Shown here in pieces: positions 39,166-61,897 of a DNA stretch of 64,000 nucleotides (the stretch's first letter is position 1; each line of letters starts with the position of its first letter). A program made the translations under genes and the position numbers. Source of the DNA: a virus (Duplodnaviria; Caudoviricetes); the IMG/VR virus record IMGVR_UViG_3300046522_000316, positions 224,001 to 288,000 of that record, one strand, 5' to 3'. A model generated the notes under the pieces. It ran no database searches, was not told the origin of the DNA, and saw only the letters and a program-made list of their open reading frames with translations.

Positions 39166-39428
39166 GTGCTTTTCCTTGTACCTTTACGAAGTGGTTTCCG
39201 TTCCGGTTCCCACCGCTCTGTGATTTGTTCGCAGCACCGGGCAATTTGGCCATCGGTGACGCCGGGGTTTTGCTCGCGCAGTTCCGTCCTGATAAATTTA
39301 CCGGACGATTTAGGATACTGCCGCGTGAGGTTCACGATGCCTCGAATGATATCGAAATCATCGTACAAATATTCTGGCTGGAAATCTTCTTGAACAACCT
39401 TTGGTTTTTTCATCTTACACTTCCTCAA
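39162..39428 (-). CDS. hypothetical protein
   Basis: Co-directional ORF. Confidence 0.6.
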   Translation of the reverse strand: MRKCKMKKPKVVQEDFQPEYLYDDFDIIRGIVNLTRQYPKSSGKFIRTELREQNPGVTDGQIARCCEQITERWEPERKPLRKGTRKST

Positions 39429-39452
39429 AAGGGGAATCCCGAAGGACTCCCC
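39427..39452 (-). terminator. intrinsic terminator
   Basis: GGGGAGUCC-UUCG-GGAUUCCCC-UUUU just after the LemA-like gene. Confidence 0.75.
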
Positions 39453-39460
39453 CGACCAGA

Positions 39461-40066
39461 TTATTGCGCTGGCTTTTTGCTCATGTCGTACAGGCCTTGG
39501 TCTTTGCCGGTTTCGAACGAAGTTGCGGTACGCTCGTTCATCAGCGGCGCGTATTTGTCCGGGCCATCACCGCAACCGATTTCCAGTTCAGCACTGCCCA
39601 TGATCGCGATCACTTGTTTGTTCGGGAACGTGCGGCGATACATACACGCTGCCGTTTTGCGATCCGTCATCAACTTTTCTTCGTGCGTGAATTTGTCACG
39701 ACCTTGGTCGATCAGATTCACGATTTTCTCGGCCAGCGCTTGCGAAGCCGGGATATTGTTTTCACGCAGGAAAAGCACAGTCGCTTTCATACCTTCGGCA
39801 CCGGAACGCAACTTGATTTGTTCGTTCACGGTTTTACGAATGTCTTCGACGTTCATGTCTTTGACGCCGATGGCTTCTTGCACCTTCTGGCTCAGGTTCG
39901 ACAGAACGGCCTGACGCGATTTGTTCGCGCCGACGATCCCGGCTTCCTGACGCACGACCGTGTTATTGATGCTGACTACCCAAAGCACCAGTGCAATAAC
40001 GAGGCCGATGGCGACCATAGCGCCGACCGAGATAAAACCGCCTTGTTTCGATTTCATTATTTCCAT
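39461..40066 (-). CDS. LemA-like membrane-anchored protein
   Basis: N-terminal TM, then INNTVVRQEAGI...RQAVLSNL..K; ENNIP..ALAEKI...GRDKF...K...MY...FPNKQV, matching the LemA architecture (N.LV..EE; E.YP; R..YN......FP...VA). Confidence 0.65.
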   Translation of the reverse strand: MEIMKSKQGGFISVGAMVAIGLVIALVLWVVSINNTVVRQEAGIVGANKSRQAVLSNLSQKVQEAIGVKDMNVEDIRKTVNEQIKLRSGAEGMKATVLFLRENNIPASQALAEKIVNLIDQGRDKFTHEEKLMTDRKTAACMYRRTFPNKQVIAIMGSAELEIGCGDGPDKYAPLMNERTATSFETGKDQGLYDMSKKPAQ

Positions 40067-40072
40067 TTTCCT

Positions 40073-40177
40073 TTAGTGGGTACAGCTTTTGAGTGCGAAC
40101 AACGCAACGCCGATAATCGCCGCAACGATCAGCAGTTCGATCAGCGTGAAGCCTTTAGATTTCTTTGGAGATTTCAT
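40073..40177 (-). CDS. 34-aa mini type IV prepilin-like peptide
   Basis: Hand translation MKSPKKSKGFTLIELLIVAAIIGVALFALKSCTH: basic leader, G|F site, Glu+5, hydrophobic helix; fills the gap between two genes. Confidence 0.8.
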   Translation of the reverse strand: MKSPKKSKGFTLIELLIVAAIIGVALFALKSCTH

Positions 40178-40188
40178 AACGGTTCCAG

Positions 40189-41259
40189 TTAGATAAAACC
40201 GAACTTCCGATGGCGCCGACCGTAGGCGTTACGTCTGTCCAGTATATAGTTTACAGTTAATGACGGGATCACCAGAATTGCCAGCAGCGACAACGCAACC
40301 AACCAGTATGGCGGATCGTATTCGTCTTTCAGGAAGTCGTAACGTCCGAGGTCTTCGCGTTGGAAATACTGAAACGCACTATCCAGCGATTCGATATATT
40401 TCGCCGTGTCGTAACGATCCAGTTTCACCGCGTTGACATGCATCAGGTTGGAAAAGTTGTAGCCTTGCGGATCGGTCAAGTTATCAGCCGACCGGGTAAA
40501 CGAATTCGCGTTGATAACCCGGCCTTCTTTATCCAGCCGCATGACCACCACAGCATCGTTTTTCTTGCCGCCTTTCCACTTGCTTTTCAGCGCGTAATAA
40601 AAACCTTTGAAGTCGGTTTCTTCACGCAGTGCAATGACCATCACGTTAACGCCGTGCATCGGCCCCCAGCGCTTTTGTGCCACGTTCAACTGGCGCGACA
40701 ATTCGCGTTGGTCAACTTGCGGCGTGTTGGAGAATCCACGCTGCACTTTGAAGCCTGCGTAAACGTGCGGATATTCCGGCAACCAACCTTTGTACTCTTC
40801 AGCGGCTTCGCGGTCGATCATCACCGTTTGTTCGCTCACGTTCTGGAAATTCAGAAAGCGTTTGCTGGCGGTGTACGGATCGCCTATTTTCGTGTTGGTG
40901 TAAATCTCCGGCGCACGAATGGATTGGTGCGTGTATTCGCTGAATTTGTCACCGTCGATATCCGACACAACATCCCAGCGCCAGCGTGGAATTTCGCGGG
41001 TGCAGGTTTTCGTGTTGCCTTGGGAATCTTTTCCGCAATCGTAGCTTTCAGTTTCTGGATCATAAACACGTTTTTTCTCCGCGACAGAACCGCTCAACAA
41101 TTGCAGGTCGGAAGCCTGCCAATACATCGGCCCGTAGTAAACTGCACACGACACGATCACACCGACAAGAAAGCACAGGCCAGATGCCGCCCAATCGTGT
41201 TCCCTGTGTTGCCAATAGGCCGCAACCAAAAGGGCTGCGAAGAGATACGCAAAAATCAT
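40189..41259 (-). CDS. membrane protein with TPM-like periplasmic domain
   Basis: Two N-terminal and one C-terminal TM; GVNVMVIAL...KSKWKGGKKNDAVVVMRLD resembles the TPM core. Confidence 0.6.
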   Translation of the reverse strand: MIFAYLFAALLVAAYWQHREHDWAASGLCFLVGVIVSCAVYYGPMYWQASDLQLLSGSVAEKKRVYDPETESYDCGKDSQGNTKTCTREIPRWRWDVVSDIDGDKFSEYTHQSIRAPEIYTNTKIGDPYTASKRFLNFQNVSEQTVMIDREAAEEYKGWLPEYPHVYAGFKVQRGFSNTPQVDQRELSRQLNVAQKRWGPMHGVNVMVIALREETDFKGFYYALKSKWKGGKKNDAVVVMRLDKEGRVINANSFTRSADNLTDPQGYNFSNLMHVNAVKLDRYDTAKYIESLDSAFQYFQREDLGRYDFLKDEYDPPYWLVALSLLAILVIPSLTVNYILDRRNAYGRRHRKFGFI

Positions 41260-44328: not shown

Positions 44329-44901
44329 TTATTGCTCCCGTTGGGCGATGCGCTGTTGCACGTAGTTGATAAGTTCGTTCGTGGTTTGCCACGTCATGTC
44401 TTCGTCAGGAATTTCGATGCTGAAATGATCCTCGACACACAACGTCAGATCGAACATTGCAATTTCGTCAGCTTCCATTTCGCTGAATGGAGTGCGGACG
44501 TTGATGTGTTCTGCGCGATAACCAAAACTACCGGCCACCATTTCGAGAATCGTGGCTTTCAATTCTGGTGCCATTTCACTCGGCATAATTTCCTCTACTT
44601 CGTCAAAGGGCACGGTATCAGGCAGCGGGTAATTCTTGGCTGCGTCGTCAAGCGCAGCGCGCAACGTAGGCTTTGGTTCAGTTCGTTCAAACCGCCACAT
44701 TAAATTGAATTCTTTGGCCGGTGTACGCTGGAACATATTCGGGTTGATCGACAGGCCGCTATTCGACAGGGCCGTGCGACGTTCCAGATAATCGAGGCGA
44801 TCAGTATCCCCGAAAAGTTCGCGCAATTTTGCAGCGAGTTTGTAATCGGATGCGCACACCAATTCGTATGCGCGTTGGCGTTCCTGTTTGGTCAGGCTCA
44901 T
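44329..44901 (-). CDS. phage domain fused to a C-terminal ACP-like domain lacking the Ppant Ser
   Basis: aa 110-186 ...EADEIAMFDLTLCVEDHFSIEIPDEDM..TTNELINYV aligns to AcpP [36 protein letters not shown]; Ser replaced by Glu. Confidence 0.8.
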   Translation of the reverse strand: MSLTKQERQRAYELVCASDYKLAAKLRELFGDTDRLDYLERRTALSNSGLSINPNMFQRTPAKEFNLMWRFERTEPKPTLRAALDDAAKNYPLPDTVPFDEVEEIMPSEMAPELKATILEMVAGSFGYRAEHINVRTPFSEMEADEIAMFDLTLCVEDHFSIEIPDEDMTWQTTNELINYVQQRIAQREQ

Positions 44902-60435: not shown

Positions 60436-60584
60436 CGGTTACGAACCCTGTCGTGCCGTTTCGGTTCGCGTTTCAGTTTTTCAATTTGTTCCTGCTTGCG
60501 TTGTTCCCGCAAGTATTCTGCAAATTGACGGTCGGCCCAGTCGCGCTGTTGCTGGCGCATGTTGTCGTGCCAGAACATAATTAA
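60390..60584 (-). CDS. possible small protein
   Basis: Region needs a gene; the frame is uncertain. Confidence 0.3.
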
Positions 60585-61816
60585 ATCCCCGATGTGATAA
60601 TTGCAAAGTCACTCGGATTCAAATCGGTGTGCTGTGCAAATTTAACCAGTTCGGTAAAACCGAATCGGCCCGCCAGTTCGTCGATGATTTCGATCCGGCG
60701 TTTCATGCCCGACAATTCGTGAACTGCGGAAGCGTCGAAGTCGCACTTGCCTTCGTTTACGATGTGGTTAAAAAGGGCAACCAGACCGGGCGTAGAAACA
60801 TCCGCCAACAAATCCACGATTTCGTCTTCGTCTTCCGCGTCGATAGTTTCGCCGTCGATTTCCTCTTCCTCTTCTTCGAGGTCGTCAGGGTCACGGAACG
60901 AAGAACAGACGTTGTAGCAACTGCGGCGGCACGGGTGAACCGATTCAATCATTTCGCGAAACACACGCAGCACGTCAGATTGCGCATGCGCCACGACGTT
61001 TTCACTTTCGTATAAATCGAAAACCCGATCCGTGATTTTCAATTCGAACGCTCGCTGCAAACTGAACAATTGCTGCGTCGTGTCTTTGCCGTTGTACAGG
61101 TGCTGCATATAGCGCAGCGATTGTTTCACGCAGGCCACATAACGCACGATTACAGATACCAGCCATTCGTCTAGGCTCTTCGGCATTGCAGCGCCAGACA
61201 AACGCGCCATATCGCACAGGGCCAGAATGTGCGACTCGGAACCGACGTTGTGATCAATCACCAGCATTTCACCAACGTACAAACGGAAGCCGTTAAAGCC
61301 TTCGCTGATTTCCACCACAGCACGGGCGAACGTGGTCGCGTTGGGCACGTTGCACAGGTGAATTGCACCGTCGCTGTGAATCTGCATCACGAAACCGGCA
61401 GTGGCTTTTGTAGGCGCCAATTTCTTTTCGAGGTCGCCCATGATCAGCGACAGATTGTGCGGACGGCTGTTTTGGAATTTGACAGGCTCGCCAATTTCCT
61501 TTGCCATTTTCACCACGACCTTTTTCGGCTGCGCTACACGCGGCGCAGAATCCATCGGTTCGTGATTGGCGATATACGTTTCAATATCACGAACCGTTCT
61601 CCAACCACTCGATACGCCGCCCGGAATTTCGATTTCGAATTCCTCTTCAAGATCCATGAGGATTTCGCCAAGATCCATTCCGTTGATTTTCAGGGAATGT
61701 CTGATCGTGTCTTCCGAATCAATCGGGTGCCCGATTTTCATGCCCATGTGATCAGTAATGACGCGGCGAATGCGGTTCATTTGATCAGCGGAAACTTTCT
61801 TGCTCGGCTTAGCCAT
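60581..61816 (-). CDS. protein with an N-terminal ACP-like domain lacking the Ppant Ser
   Basis: RIRRVITDHMG...LKINGMDLGEILMDLEEEFEIEIP..WRTVRDIETYIANH aligns to AcpP; DSL replaced by NGM; start moved to MAKPSK. Confidence 0.8.
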   Translation of the reverse strand: MAKPSKKVSADQMNRIRRVITDHMGMKIGHPIDSEDTIRHSLKINGMDLGEILMDLEEEFEIEIPGGVSSGWRTVRDIETYIANHEPMDSAPRVAQPKKVVVKMAKEIGEPVKFQNSRPHNLSLIMGDLEKKLAPTKATAGFVMQIHSDGAIHLCNVPNATTFARAVVEISEGFNGFRLYVGEMLVIDHNVGSESHILALCDMARLSGAAMPKSLDEWLVSVIVRYVACVKQSLRYMQHLYNGKDTTQQLFSLQRAFELKITDRVFDLYESENVVAHAQSDVLRVFREMIESVHPCRRSCYNVCSSFRDPDDLEEEEEEIDGETIDAEDEDEIVDLLADVSTPGLVALFNHIVNEGKCDFDASAVHELSGMKRRIEIIDELAGRFGFTELVKFAQHTDLNPSDFAIITSGI

Positions 61817-61897
61817 GGTGCGAATTCCTTGATAAAGGTCAGTTTGATTTACTACTGACAAAACCCACACATGGCGGGCTTGTCTTTGTGGTGGGGA

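What the first reader, a model, noticed from the sequence alone, without database searches (positions are those of the whole stretch)
40073..40177. 34-aa mini-pilin: a bare type IV prepilin N-terminus encoded by a phage
Seen: MKSPKKSKG|FTLIELLIVAAIIGVALFALKSCTH, missed by the ORF track. It has a basic leader, the Gly|Phe cleavage site, Glu+5 and a hydrophobic helix of about 20 aa, then stops with no globular head. Known: PilD/GspO cleave and N-methylate this class III signal, and this helix is the polymerisation unit of type IV pili and T2SS pseudopili. The phage anti-pilus proteins I know (Tip, Aqs1, PfsE) act on the motor or platform rather than mimicking pilin. Inference: a headless pilin mimic that poisons or caps pilus/T2SS assembly or titrates prepilin peptidase, giving superinfection exclusion of pilus-dependent phages or secretion shut-off. 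This is the strongest candidate for an undescribed system here.
Basis: partly seen in the sequence, partly recalled or inferred. Interest (0 to 1): 0.78.

Follow-up and report, generated by a model that had tools for sequence, protein, structure and literature searches.

The report
Headless 34-residue pilin of jumbo phages
A giant soil phage carries a real, conserved 34-codon gene that encodes only the export signal and membrane helix of a bacterial pilus subunit. It probably tampers with the host's pili or secretion machine, an idea already in print for longer phage "pilin stubs" and still untested.

Summary
The ORF at 40073-40177 (minus strand) encodes the stated 34-residue peptide. It passes Pfam N_methyl (37.9 bits against a cut-off of 21.2) and TIGR02532.

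It is a real gene. Orthologues of 31-35 aa lie in the same slot in 10 further lineages of PaBG/Lu11/HRDY3-like jumbo phages. The slot is between a TPM-domain membrane protein and a phrog_1383 virion protein. Seven of the 11 start codons overlap the upstream stop codon. Purifying selection falls on the cleavage site plus F1-V10, including invariant Gly-1, Phe+1 and Glu+5 (pN/pS 0.22). The rest of the helix only stays hydrophobic (pN/pS 0.77). The gene looks ancestral to the clade and was lost three times, including in all three cultured isolates.

A complete 312-kb relative has no prepilin peptidase and no other pilin, so any processing must use the host enzyme.

The function is inferred: a PilD-processed 25-residue helix that interferes with type IV pilus or T2SS assembly, or with pilin sensing.

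The novelty claim is overstated. Phage pilin mimics (P-FimU) and truncated ~60-residue phage PilA proteins were described in 2026. IMG already annotates this ORF. This scan has also noted other phage mini-prepilins on other DNA. I class this as a new, extremely short variant of a known kind.

The parts
40073..40177 (-). Mini-pilin gene, 34 codons plus TAA stop (40073-40075)
   Evidence: ORF list; Pfam N_methyl 37.9 bits; TIGR02532 31 bits; 10 syntenic orthologues of 31-35 aa
40151..40177 (-). Basic leader MKSPKKSKG ending in Gly-1 (predicted prepilin-peptidase cleavage after 40151)
   Evidence: Read from the sequence. Gly-1 is invariant in 11 orthologues. Cleavage itself is inferred.
40076..40150 (-). 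Predicted mature 25-residue peptide: Phe+1, Glu+5, a 20-residue hydrophobic helix and the polar tail KSCTH
   Evidence: pN/pS is 0.22 for the cleavage site to V10 and 0.77 for residues 11-22.
40178..40188 (-). 11-nt spacer between the upstream stop and the mini-pilin ATG, with a weak GGA Shine-Dalgarno-like element
   Evidence: In 7 of 11 orthologues the start overlaps the upstream stop instead (ATGA, TGATG, TAATG).
40189..41259 (-). Upstream gene: 356-aa membrane protein (two N-terminal and one C-terminal TM helices) with a TPM-like domain, phrog_2087
   Evidence: phrog_2087 E 5e-68. The AF2 model (mean pLDDT 65) matches TPM domains 2kw7, 3ptj, 2kpt and 8c7i with prob 0.97-1.0.
39461..40066 (-). 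Downstream gene: 199-201-aa phrog_1383 'virion structural protein' (N-terminal TM plus helical bundle; called LemA-like in the PaBG record). The likely start is the second ATG at 40057.
   Evidence: phrog_1383 E 1.6e-43; PaBG annotation; AF2 model. LemA 2etd is only rank 17 with E 1.2.
39426..39453 (-). Intrinsic-terminator-like hairpin (10-bp GC-rich stem, UUCG loop) plus UUUU, 8 nt after the downstream gene's stop. It closes the three-gene unit.
   Evidence: RNA fold. The simple consensus scan did not list it.

Best explanation
The ORF is a genuine gene of a roughly 314-kb soil/rhizosphere jumbo phage of the PaBG/Lu11/HRDY3 group. Its product is a type IV prepilin cut down to the class III signal peptide and the alpha1-N membrane helix.

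The proposed mechanism is inferred. The peptide is made together with the upstream TPM-like membrane protein and inserts into the host inner membrane. The host prepilin peptidase (PilD/GspO) cleaves it after Gly9 and N-methylates Phe+1. The resulting 25-residue headless pilin carries the same F1...E5 face as the host's pilins.

That face lets it occupy sites that recognise the pilin N-terminus. These sites could be the base of the growing pilus or pseudopilus and its platform, the peptidase itself, or a pilin-sensing kinase such as PilS. The outcome would be less surface piliation or T2SS function in the infected cell. That would exclude pilus-dependent competitor phages, or stop progeny being lost on infected cells and debris.
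For: Shown:
- The motif is real and well above the family cut-offs.
- Eleven orthologues of 31-35 aa occupy the same slot in divergent phages, where the neighbouring protein is down to 36-40% identical.
- The profile search's best full-length hits among 1.84 billion representatives are 29-35-aa proteins.
- Seven of 11 start codons overlap the upstream stop.
- Selection is concentrated on the pilin signature. Gly-1, Phe+1, Thr+2, Glu+5, L7, I8 and V9 are invariant. pN/pS is 0.22 there and 0.77 in the rest of the helix, with synonymous sites near saturation. A buried Glu kept in every lineage argues for a partner that reads the pilin N-terminus.
- Three long contigs from other studies keep the frame. 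They show only A19V, A20V/L and H34N plus five synonymous changes.
- A complete 312-kb relative has no other N_methyl ORF and no Peptidase_A24, so processing must be done by the host.
- The leader and first 12 mature residues match PilA of rhizosphere Pseudomonas (MKKQQG|FTLIELLIVVAI...). Bacterial genes with this N-terminus have a median length of 163 aa.

From the literature:
- Prophage FimU mimics enter the pilus and block phages. Truncated ~60-residue PilA proteins occur in six virulent Pseudomonas phages (PMC12952977).
- A 17-residue N-terminal PilA peptide is enough to signal to the kinase PleC in Caulobacter, and it lowered phiCbK susceptibility by 77% (PMC7196804).
- PilS interacts directly with PilA for autoregulation (PMC6058289, citing Kilmury and Burrows 2016).
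Against: - There is no experimental or expression evidence for any member.
- Processing by PilD is inferred from the motif alone.
- Gly14 and Pro22, which help alpha1-N pack in filaments, are not conserved, so true co-polymerisation is doubtful.
- The gene sits in a unit with a virion structural protein, ahead of a terminator. That is not where early superinfection-exclusion genes are usually expected, though timing is unknown.
- Its constant position, translationally coupled between two phage membrane proteins, fits a phage-internal role as well.
- The host and the phage's receptor are unknown.
- Three lineages, including all three cultured isolates, do without the gene.
Confidence: 0.45

Rival explanations
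1. The peptide is a small subunit of a phage membrane module. It works with the flanking TPM-like and phrog_1383 (LemA-like) membrane proteins, for instance as a helix that packs against their TM segments. The prepilin signal then serves only as a compact insertion and cleavage device, not as mimicry of host pilins.
For: It is always found between the same two genes and is usually translationally coupled to the upstream one. All three products have TM helices, and the unit ends at a terminator. Most phrog_1383 homologues of the clade also start with a basic leader ending in Gly, such as MKSKQRG or MNNQKG. An earlier unchecked note of this scan (e1-1396997) describes another mini-prepilin placed in front of membrane-scaffold proteins.
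Against: The TPM-like/phrog_1383 pair exists without the peptide in 5 of 15 clade members. The TPM-like gene has homologues in about 450 phage records, and the few checked outside the clade (L015-L019, Aeromonas AsFcp) lack an adjacent mini-pilin. A simple TM subunit would not need an invariant buried Glu+5 and an exact FTLIELLIV pilin consensus while the rest of the helix drifts.
Confidence: 0.25
2. The peptide is a signalling mimic rather than an assembly poison. The membrane-embedded alpha1-N helix imitates a full inner-membrane pilin pool. It binds the TM region of a pilin-sensing kinase (PilS-type) and reprogrammes pilin transcription and linked surface-sensing outputs.
For: A 17-residue pilin peptide is sufficient for kinase signalling and lowers pilus-phage susceptibility in Caulobacter (PMC7196804). 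PilA and PilS interact directly for autoregulation (PMC6058289). Only the first ~10 mature residues are constrained, and the filament-packing residues G14 and P22 are not. Infection by an unrelated jumbo phage, PA5oct, lowers type IV pilus transcripts (bioRxiv 10.1101/679506).
Against: There is no evidence that the unknown host has a PilS-type sensor or that such a short heterologous helix binds it. In a lytic infection a transcriptional effect is slow compared with direct block of assembly.
Confidence: 0.15
3. The ORF is a non-functional relic: a captured 5' fragment of a host pilin gene, or a chance ORF, with no role.
For: It is very short. It is absent from HRDY3, Lu11, PaBG and two uncultured relatives. 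The same slot also holds an unrelated 61-aa ORF in Lu11 and L048, so the site is plastic.
Against: The frame is open in 11 lineages and 3 further contigs, although synonymous sites are near saturation. pN/pS is 0.22 on the signature. Start-stop coupling is conserved. Length stays within 31-35 aa.
Confidence: 0.03

Closest known systems
Truncated phage PilA-like proteins (P-PilA, N-terminal ~60 residues) of six virulent Pseudomonas phages (Sztanko et al. 2026, Cell Rep, PMC12952977)
   Same: Encoded by virulent phages. They keep only the N-terminal part of a type IV pilin. The authors proposed the same two mechanisms: entering the pilus without a phage-binding head, or inhibiting assembly. They are untested, like this one.
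   Different: This peptide is about half the length (25 mature residues) and has no alpha1-C. It shares no similarity beyond the signal motif: phrog_10597 and phrog_13280 match only residues 5-24. It belongs to a different phage lineage and has a fixed place between two membrane-protein genes.
Prophage FimU mimics (P-FimU) of F10-like Pseudomonas phages (PMC12952977)
   Same: Phage-encoded pilin-family proteins that use the host pilus machinery and protect against pilus-binding phages.
   Different: P-FimU proteins are full-length minor pilins with heads and extra loops. They keep the pilus working and act by replacing the receptor at the tip. The peptide here has no head to display.
CIP, the 17-residue N-terminal peptide of Caulobacter PilA (Del Medico et al. 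2020, PMC7196804)
   Same: A bare pilin TM helix with biological activity. It binds a sensor kinase TM helix and lowers susceptibility to a pilus-specific phage.
   Different: CIP is a laboratory fragment of a Tad-type host pilin, not a natural gene. There is no sequence relationship, and its target PleC is specific to Caulobacter.
PfsE of Pf filamentous phage (PMC8764522) and Tip/Aqs1-type pilus inhibitors
   Same: Small phage proteins that switch off type IV pili to prevent superinfection. From my own knowledge, not checked here: PfsE is about as small and also membrane-embedded.
   Different: No sequence similarity was tested or seen.
Bacterial type IV pilins and T2SS pseudopilins (PF07963, TIGR02532)
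   Same: Basic leader, Gly-1, Phe+1, Glu+5 and a hydrophobic alpha1-N. The first 12 mature residues are identical to Pseudomonas fluorescens-group PilA.
   Different: There is no alpha1-C or globular domain and no G14 or P22. No pilus genes or peptidase lie nearby. Bacterial genes with this N-terminus have a median length of 163 aa.

Membership tests
Class III (prepilin-type) signal peptide, PF07963 / TIGR02532 | Profile score above the curated cut-off | tested here: met
   PF07963 scores 37.9 bits against 21.2. TIGR02532 scores 31 bits against 16.3.
Class III (prepilin-type) signal peptide, PF07963 / TIGR02532 | Short basic leader ending in Gly-1, hydrophobic +1 (Phe), Glu+5, then about 20 hydrophobic residues | tested here: met
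   Read from the sequence. G-1, F+1 and E+5 are invariant in 11 orthologues.
Class III (prepilin-type) signal peptide, PF07963 / TIGR02532 | Cleavage and N-methylation by a prepilin peptidase (PilD/GspO) | not testable with these tools
   This needs a biochemical assay. The phage itself has no Peptidase_A24 in a complete relative.
Type IV pilin / T2SS pseudopilin (structural subunit) | Alpha1-C plus a globular beta-sheet head domain after the N-terminal helix | tested here: not met
   The protein ends 25 residues after the cleavage site. All 11 orthologues end at 22-26 mature residues.
Type IV pilin / T2SS pseudopilin (structural subunit) | Helix-breaking Gly14 and Pro22 that allow alpha1-N packing in filaments (my knowledge of T4a pilins) | tested here: not met
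   No Pro occurs anywhere. Position 14 is G in only some members.
Type IV pilin / T2SS pseudopilin (structural subunit) | Encoded with, or dependent on, a pilus or secretion assembly system | tested here: inconclusive
   The complete 312-kb relative has no pilus or peptidase genes. Dependence on the host system is inferred.
Truncated phage P-PilA (~60 aa; PMC12952977) / phrog_10597, phrog_13280 | Phage-encoded protein made only of the N-terminal part of a pilin | tested here: met
   Phage context and a headless product.
Truncated phage P-PilA (~60 aa; PMC12952977) / phrog_10597, phrog_13280 | Homology along the whole family profile (59-67 positions) | tested here: not met
   Only profile positions 2-21 align, with E 3e-6 to 1e-5. 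The tails (ALKSCTH, IYKATH) are specific to this family.
TPM-domain protein (upstream neighbour) | TPM alpha/beta fold | tested here: met
   Foldseek hits 2kw7 (E 9e-5), 3ptj, 2kpt and 8c7i. Pfam found no hit by sequence.
LemA (downstream neighbour) | LemA helical fold or PF04011 profile match | tested here: inconclusive
   No Pfam hit. LemA 2etd is only rank 17, E 1.2, TM 0.45. The name comes from the PaBG record.

The most novel reading that the evidence does not exclude
The 25-residue peptide is a viral mimic of the host's inner-membrane pilin pool. After PilD processing it acts as an intramembrane ligand of a pilin-sensing kinase (PilS-type). It would switch off pilin transcription and rewire surface-sensing outputs during infection. 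That would be the first natural, virus-encoded pilin-helix signal, and the smallest known functional pilin derivative.
Probability: 0.12. Interest if true: 0.8.

Novelty: new variant of a known kind. Interest (0 to 1): 0.5.

Why it matters
If the peptide acts as proposed, it marks the minimal part of a pilin that the pilus or T2SS machinery, or its sensors, still recognises: 25 residues, of which only about 10 are constrained. It would be a natural lead for peptide inhibitors of piliation. It would also add a conserved member to the emerging class of phage pilin mimics, and so a way to study phage-versus-phage competition for pili in soil Pseudomonas-like hosts. It also shows that genes of 31-35 codons can be ancient, selected parts of jumbo phage genomes. 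The function is cheap to test by expression in laboratory Pseudomonas strains.

Tried and rejected
- **Read-through fusion.** In the window the mini-ORF is in frame with the next gene across one TAA. L005 and contig X4 have a 1-nt deletion in the spacer that breaks the frame, so this is coincidence.
- **Tandem duplication of the next gene's 5' end.** The window shows no convincing DNA similarity. A 23-nt near-identity links the L047 mini-pilin leader to the window's phrog_1383 leader. I kept it only as a passing note.
- **Complex prediction.** The job used the TPM-like protein, the phrog_1383 protein and the mini-pilin. The verdict was 'no answer' with score 0.00 and controls were not run. This is not evidence either way.
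- **The genome search 'own'.** No genome is held for the window.
- **Expression.** No RNA holder is listed among the sequencing runs. This is not evidence on expression.
- **Host assignment from the pilin N-terminus.** GFTLIELLI occurs across many phyla. It is only compatible with Pseudomonas.
- **PDB sequence searches with the neighbours' profiles.** They found nothing significant.
- **Short contigs for P0091 and P0066.** They gave no context.
- **Kilmury and Burrows 2016 (PMC4889343).** The paper is not held, so details of the PilA residues needed for PilS binding rest on memory and are not used as evidence.
- **Table S3 of Sztanko et al.** It is not held, so the six Pseudomonas phages could not be compared directly.

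Full report
**Observation**

The minus strand of 40073-40177 holds an ATG-initiated ORF of 34 codons. It encodes MKSPKKSKG|FTLIELLIVAAIIGVALFALKSCTH.
- It scores 37.9 bits on Pfam N_methyl (cut-off 21.2, E 1.1e-9).
- It scores 31 bits on TIGR02532 (cut-off 16.3).
- It is the only class III signal motif among 1228 open frames of 30 aa or more in the window. Chance is excluded.

The window is phage DNA.
- All large ORFs run on the minus strand.
- Neighbours hit PHROG families.
- The nearest records are the Pseudomonas jumbo phages HRDY3 (313 kb), Lu11 and PaBG.
- The exact peptide lies on a public contig of 314,289 bp.
- The DNA recurs in soil, rhizosphere and plant metagenomes of more than ten studies.

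**Is it a gene?**

The ORF lies between two conserved genes.
- Upstream is a 356-aa membrane protein (40189-41259, phrog_2087). Its AlphaFold model matches TPM domains (2kw7, 3ptj, 2kpt, 8c7i).
- Downstream is a 199-201-aa phrog_1383 'virion structural protein' (39461-40066), which the PaBG record calls LemA-like. I could not confirm that fold.
- A GC-rich UUCG hairpin followed by UUUU closes the unit at 39426-39453.

The slot is not always filled. HRDY3, two uncultured relatives (L002, L003) and PaBG have only 17-31 nt there. Lu11 has an unrelated 61-aa ORF.

Many other relatives do carry the ORF.
- A 96%-identical metagenome relative (L005) keeps it with four conservative changes.
- Much more distant relatives (L006, L014; neighbour 39-41% identical) carry a 31-aa version at the same place.
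- A profile of four members was searched against 1.84 billion representative proteins. The top full-length hits were proteins of 29-35 aa with related tails: ALKSCTH, ALKSCANI, ALKQCAG, (I/L)YK(A/Y)TH.
- All seven of these that I looked up sit between a 342-361-aa gene (cut to 225 aa at the contig end in L054) and a 183-198-aa gene (cut to 152 aa there). Four are on contigs of 89-280 kb.

That makes 11 distinct lineages.
- In 7 of them the start codon overlaps the upstream stop (ATGA, TGATG, TAATG). In one the gap is 1 nt. In three an 11-nt spacer carries a Shine-Dalgarno-like element.
- Pairwise dN/dS is mostly 0.1-0.7, with dS often above 1.
- Split in two, pN/pS is 0.22 for the cleavage site plus F1-V10 and 0.77 for mature residues 11-22.
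- M1, G-1, F+1, T+2, E+5, L7, I8 and V9 are invariant.
- Three long contigs from other studies keep the frame. They show A19V, A20V/L and H34N plus five synonymous changes. The only indel is in the spacer after the stop.

On a tree of the TPM-like neighbour, the mini-pilin is present in 10 of 15 ingroup rows and absent from both outgroups. The simplest history is one gain and three losses: the HRDY3 clade, Lu11 and PaBG.

**What it can and cannot be**

It meets every sequence criterion of a class III signal peptide. It lacks everything else that defines a pilin.
- It has no alpha1-C and no head.
- It has no conserved Gly14 or Pro22.
- A complete, terminally repeated 312-kb relative has this as its only N_methyl ORF and no Peptidase_A24. 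Cleavage, if it occurs, is done by the host.
- The leader and first 12 mature residues equal those of PilA in rhizosphere Pseudomonas (MKKQQG|FTLIELLIVVAI...).
- The motif is too widespread to name a host.
- Bacterial genes with this N-terminus have a median length of 163 aa. Forms of 31-35 aa are the rule only in this phage family.

**Mechanism**

All of the mechanism is inferred. Selection acts on exactly the part that prepilin peptidase and pilin-pilin or pilin-machinery contacts read. It keeps a charged Glu inside a membrane helix, while the rest of the helix drifts within hydrophobic residues.

I therefore favour a host-directed role (0.45). The peptide would be PilD-processed and membrane-embedded. 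It would present the F1...E5 face and interfere with type IV pilus or T2SS assembly, with the peptidase, or with pilin sensing.

Three precedents exist.
- Prophage FimU mimics enter the pilus and block tip-binding phages. The same paper reports truncated ~60-residue PilA proteins in six virulent Pseudomonas phages and proposes incorporation or inhibition (PMC12952977).
- A synthetic 17-residue PilA helix signals to PleC and cut phiCbK susceptibility by 77% (PMC7196804).
- PilS binds PilA directly for autoregulation (PMC6058289).

The unrelated jumbo phage PA5oct uses pili as receptor and lowers pilus transcripts during infection. Its authors read this as avoiding loss of sister phages (bioRxiv 10.1101/679506).

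The lack of G14 and P22 speaks against true co-polymerisation. It mildly favours docking, titration or sensing.

The main rival (0.25) is that the peptide is a small subunit of the phage's own TPM-like/phrog_1383 membrane module. Its fixed, coupled position suggests this. Against it, the module works without the peptide in a third of the clade, and the TPM-like gene occurs in about 450 phage records. A plain TM subunit also would not need the exact pilin consensus. A complex prediction gave no answer. A relic reading is nearly excluded (0.03).

**Comparison and novelty**

- The kind, phage-encoded headless pilins, has been noted in print.
- PHROGs holds short pilin-like families.
- IMG names these ORFs.
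- Earlier notes of this scan describe mini-prepilins of 30-79 codons in other phages. Those are AI notes that I did not check.

Four things are new here.
- It is a distinct family at the lower size limit, with 22-26 mature residues.
- It is ancient within a jumbo-phage clade.
- Its selection pattern pins the functional part to about ten residues.
- It has a constant place inside a membrane-protein operon.

I rate it a new variant of a known kind, with interest 0.5. It is worth a simple expression experiment but is not a new category.

Noticed in passing
window 39989-40066 (-); L002, L010, L011, L044, L047, L048, L052-L054 gene starts: Most phrog_1383 (LemA-like) virion proteins of this clade begin with a basic leader ending in Gly before their TM helix, for example MKSKQRG, MNNQKG or MFKYKG. 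They lack Phe+1/Glu+5. HRDY3 and L003 lack the leader. This may be a degenerate prepilin-like cleavage site or just the positive-inside rule.
   Followed up: partly
L047:3010-3032 versus window 40035-40057 (-): The mini-pilin leader of L047 (KSKQGGF) and the window's phrog_1383 leader share a 23-nt stretch that is nearly identical (21 of 23). Recombination between the two similar leaders would excise the mini-pilin precisely. That may explain its repeated loss.
   Followed up: no
L010:2514-2699 (Lu11_0343) and L048:3097-3316: The same slot can hold a second, unrelated small ORF of about 61 aa (motif REVxSALHWCGVxTNW). It occurs alone in Lu11 and together with the mini-pilin in L048, where no gene was called. 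The junction is a hotspot for small accessory genes.
   Followed up: partly
window 40189-41259 (-): The phrog_2087 protein has homologues in about 450 phage records, including Ackermannviridae-like phages, Aeromonas phages and many jumbo phages. It has a TPM-like domain flanked by TM helices. The role of this widespread phage membrane protein is unknown.
   Followed up: partly
window 40106-40156: In two metagenomes many short contigs of other organisms pile up on the 45-50 nt that encode GFTLIELLIV at 80% identity or more. This part of the gene is close at the DNA level to bacterial pilin genes in the same habitats.
   Followed up: no
window 44329-44901 and 60581-61870 (-): Two ORFs hit the PHROG acyl carrier protein family (phrog_5934). 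HRDY3 annotates acyl carrier proteins in the syntenic region.
   Followed up: no
L023, L024, L028-L031, L039, L040; L027, L033, L035, L037: Other viral contigs carry pilin-like ORFs of 54-67 aa. One recurrent 63-65-aa family ends in ...GKWSEGIQYGRITQLCTYN. Short phage pilin derivatives are therefore common and diverse.
   Followed up: no
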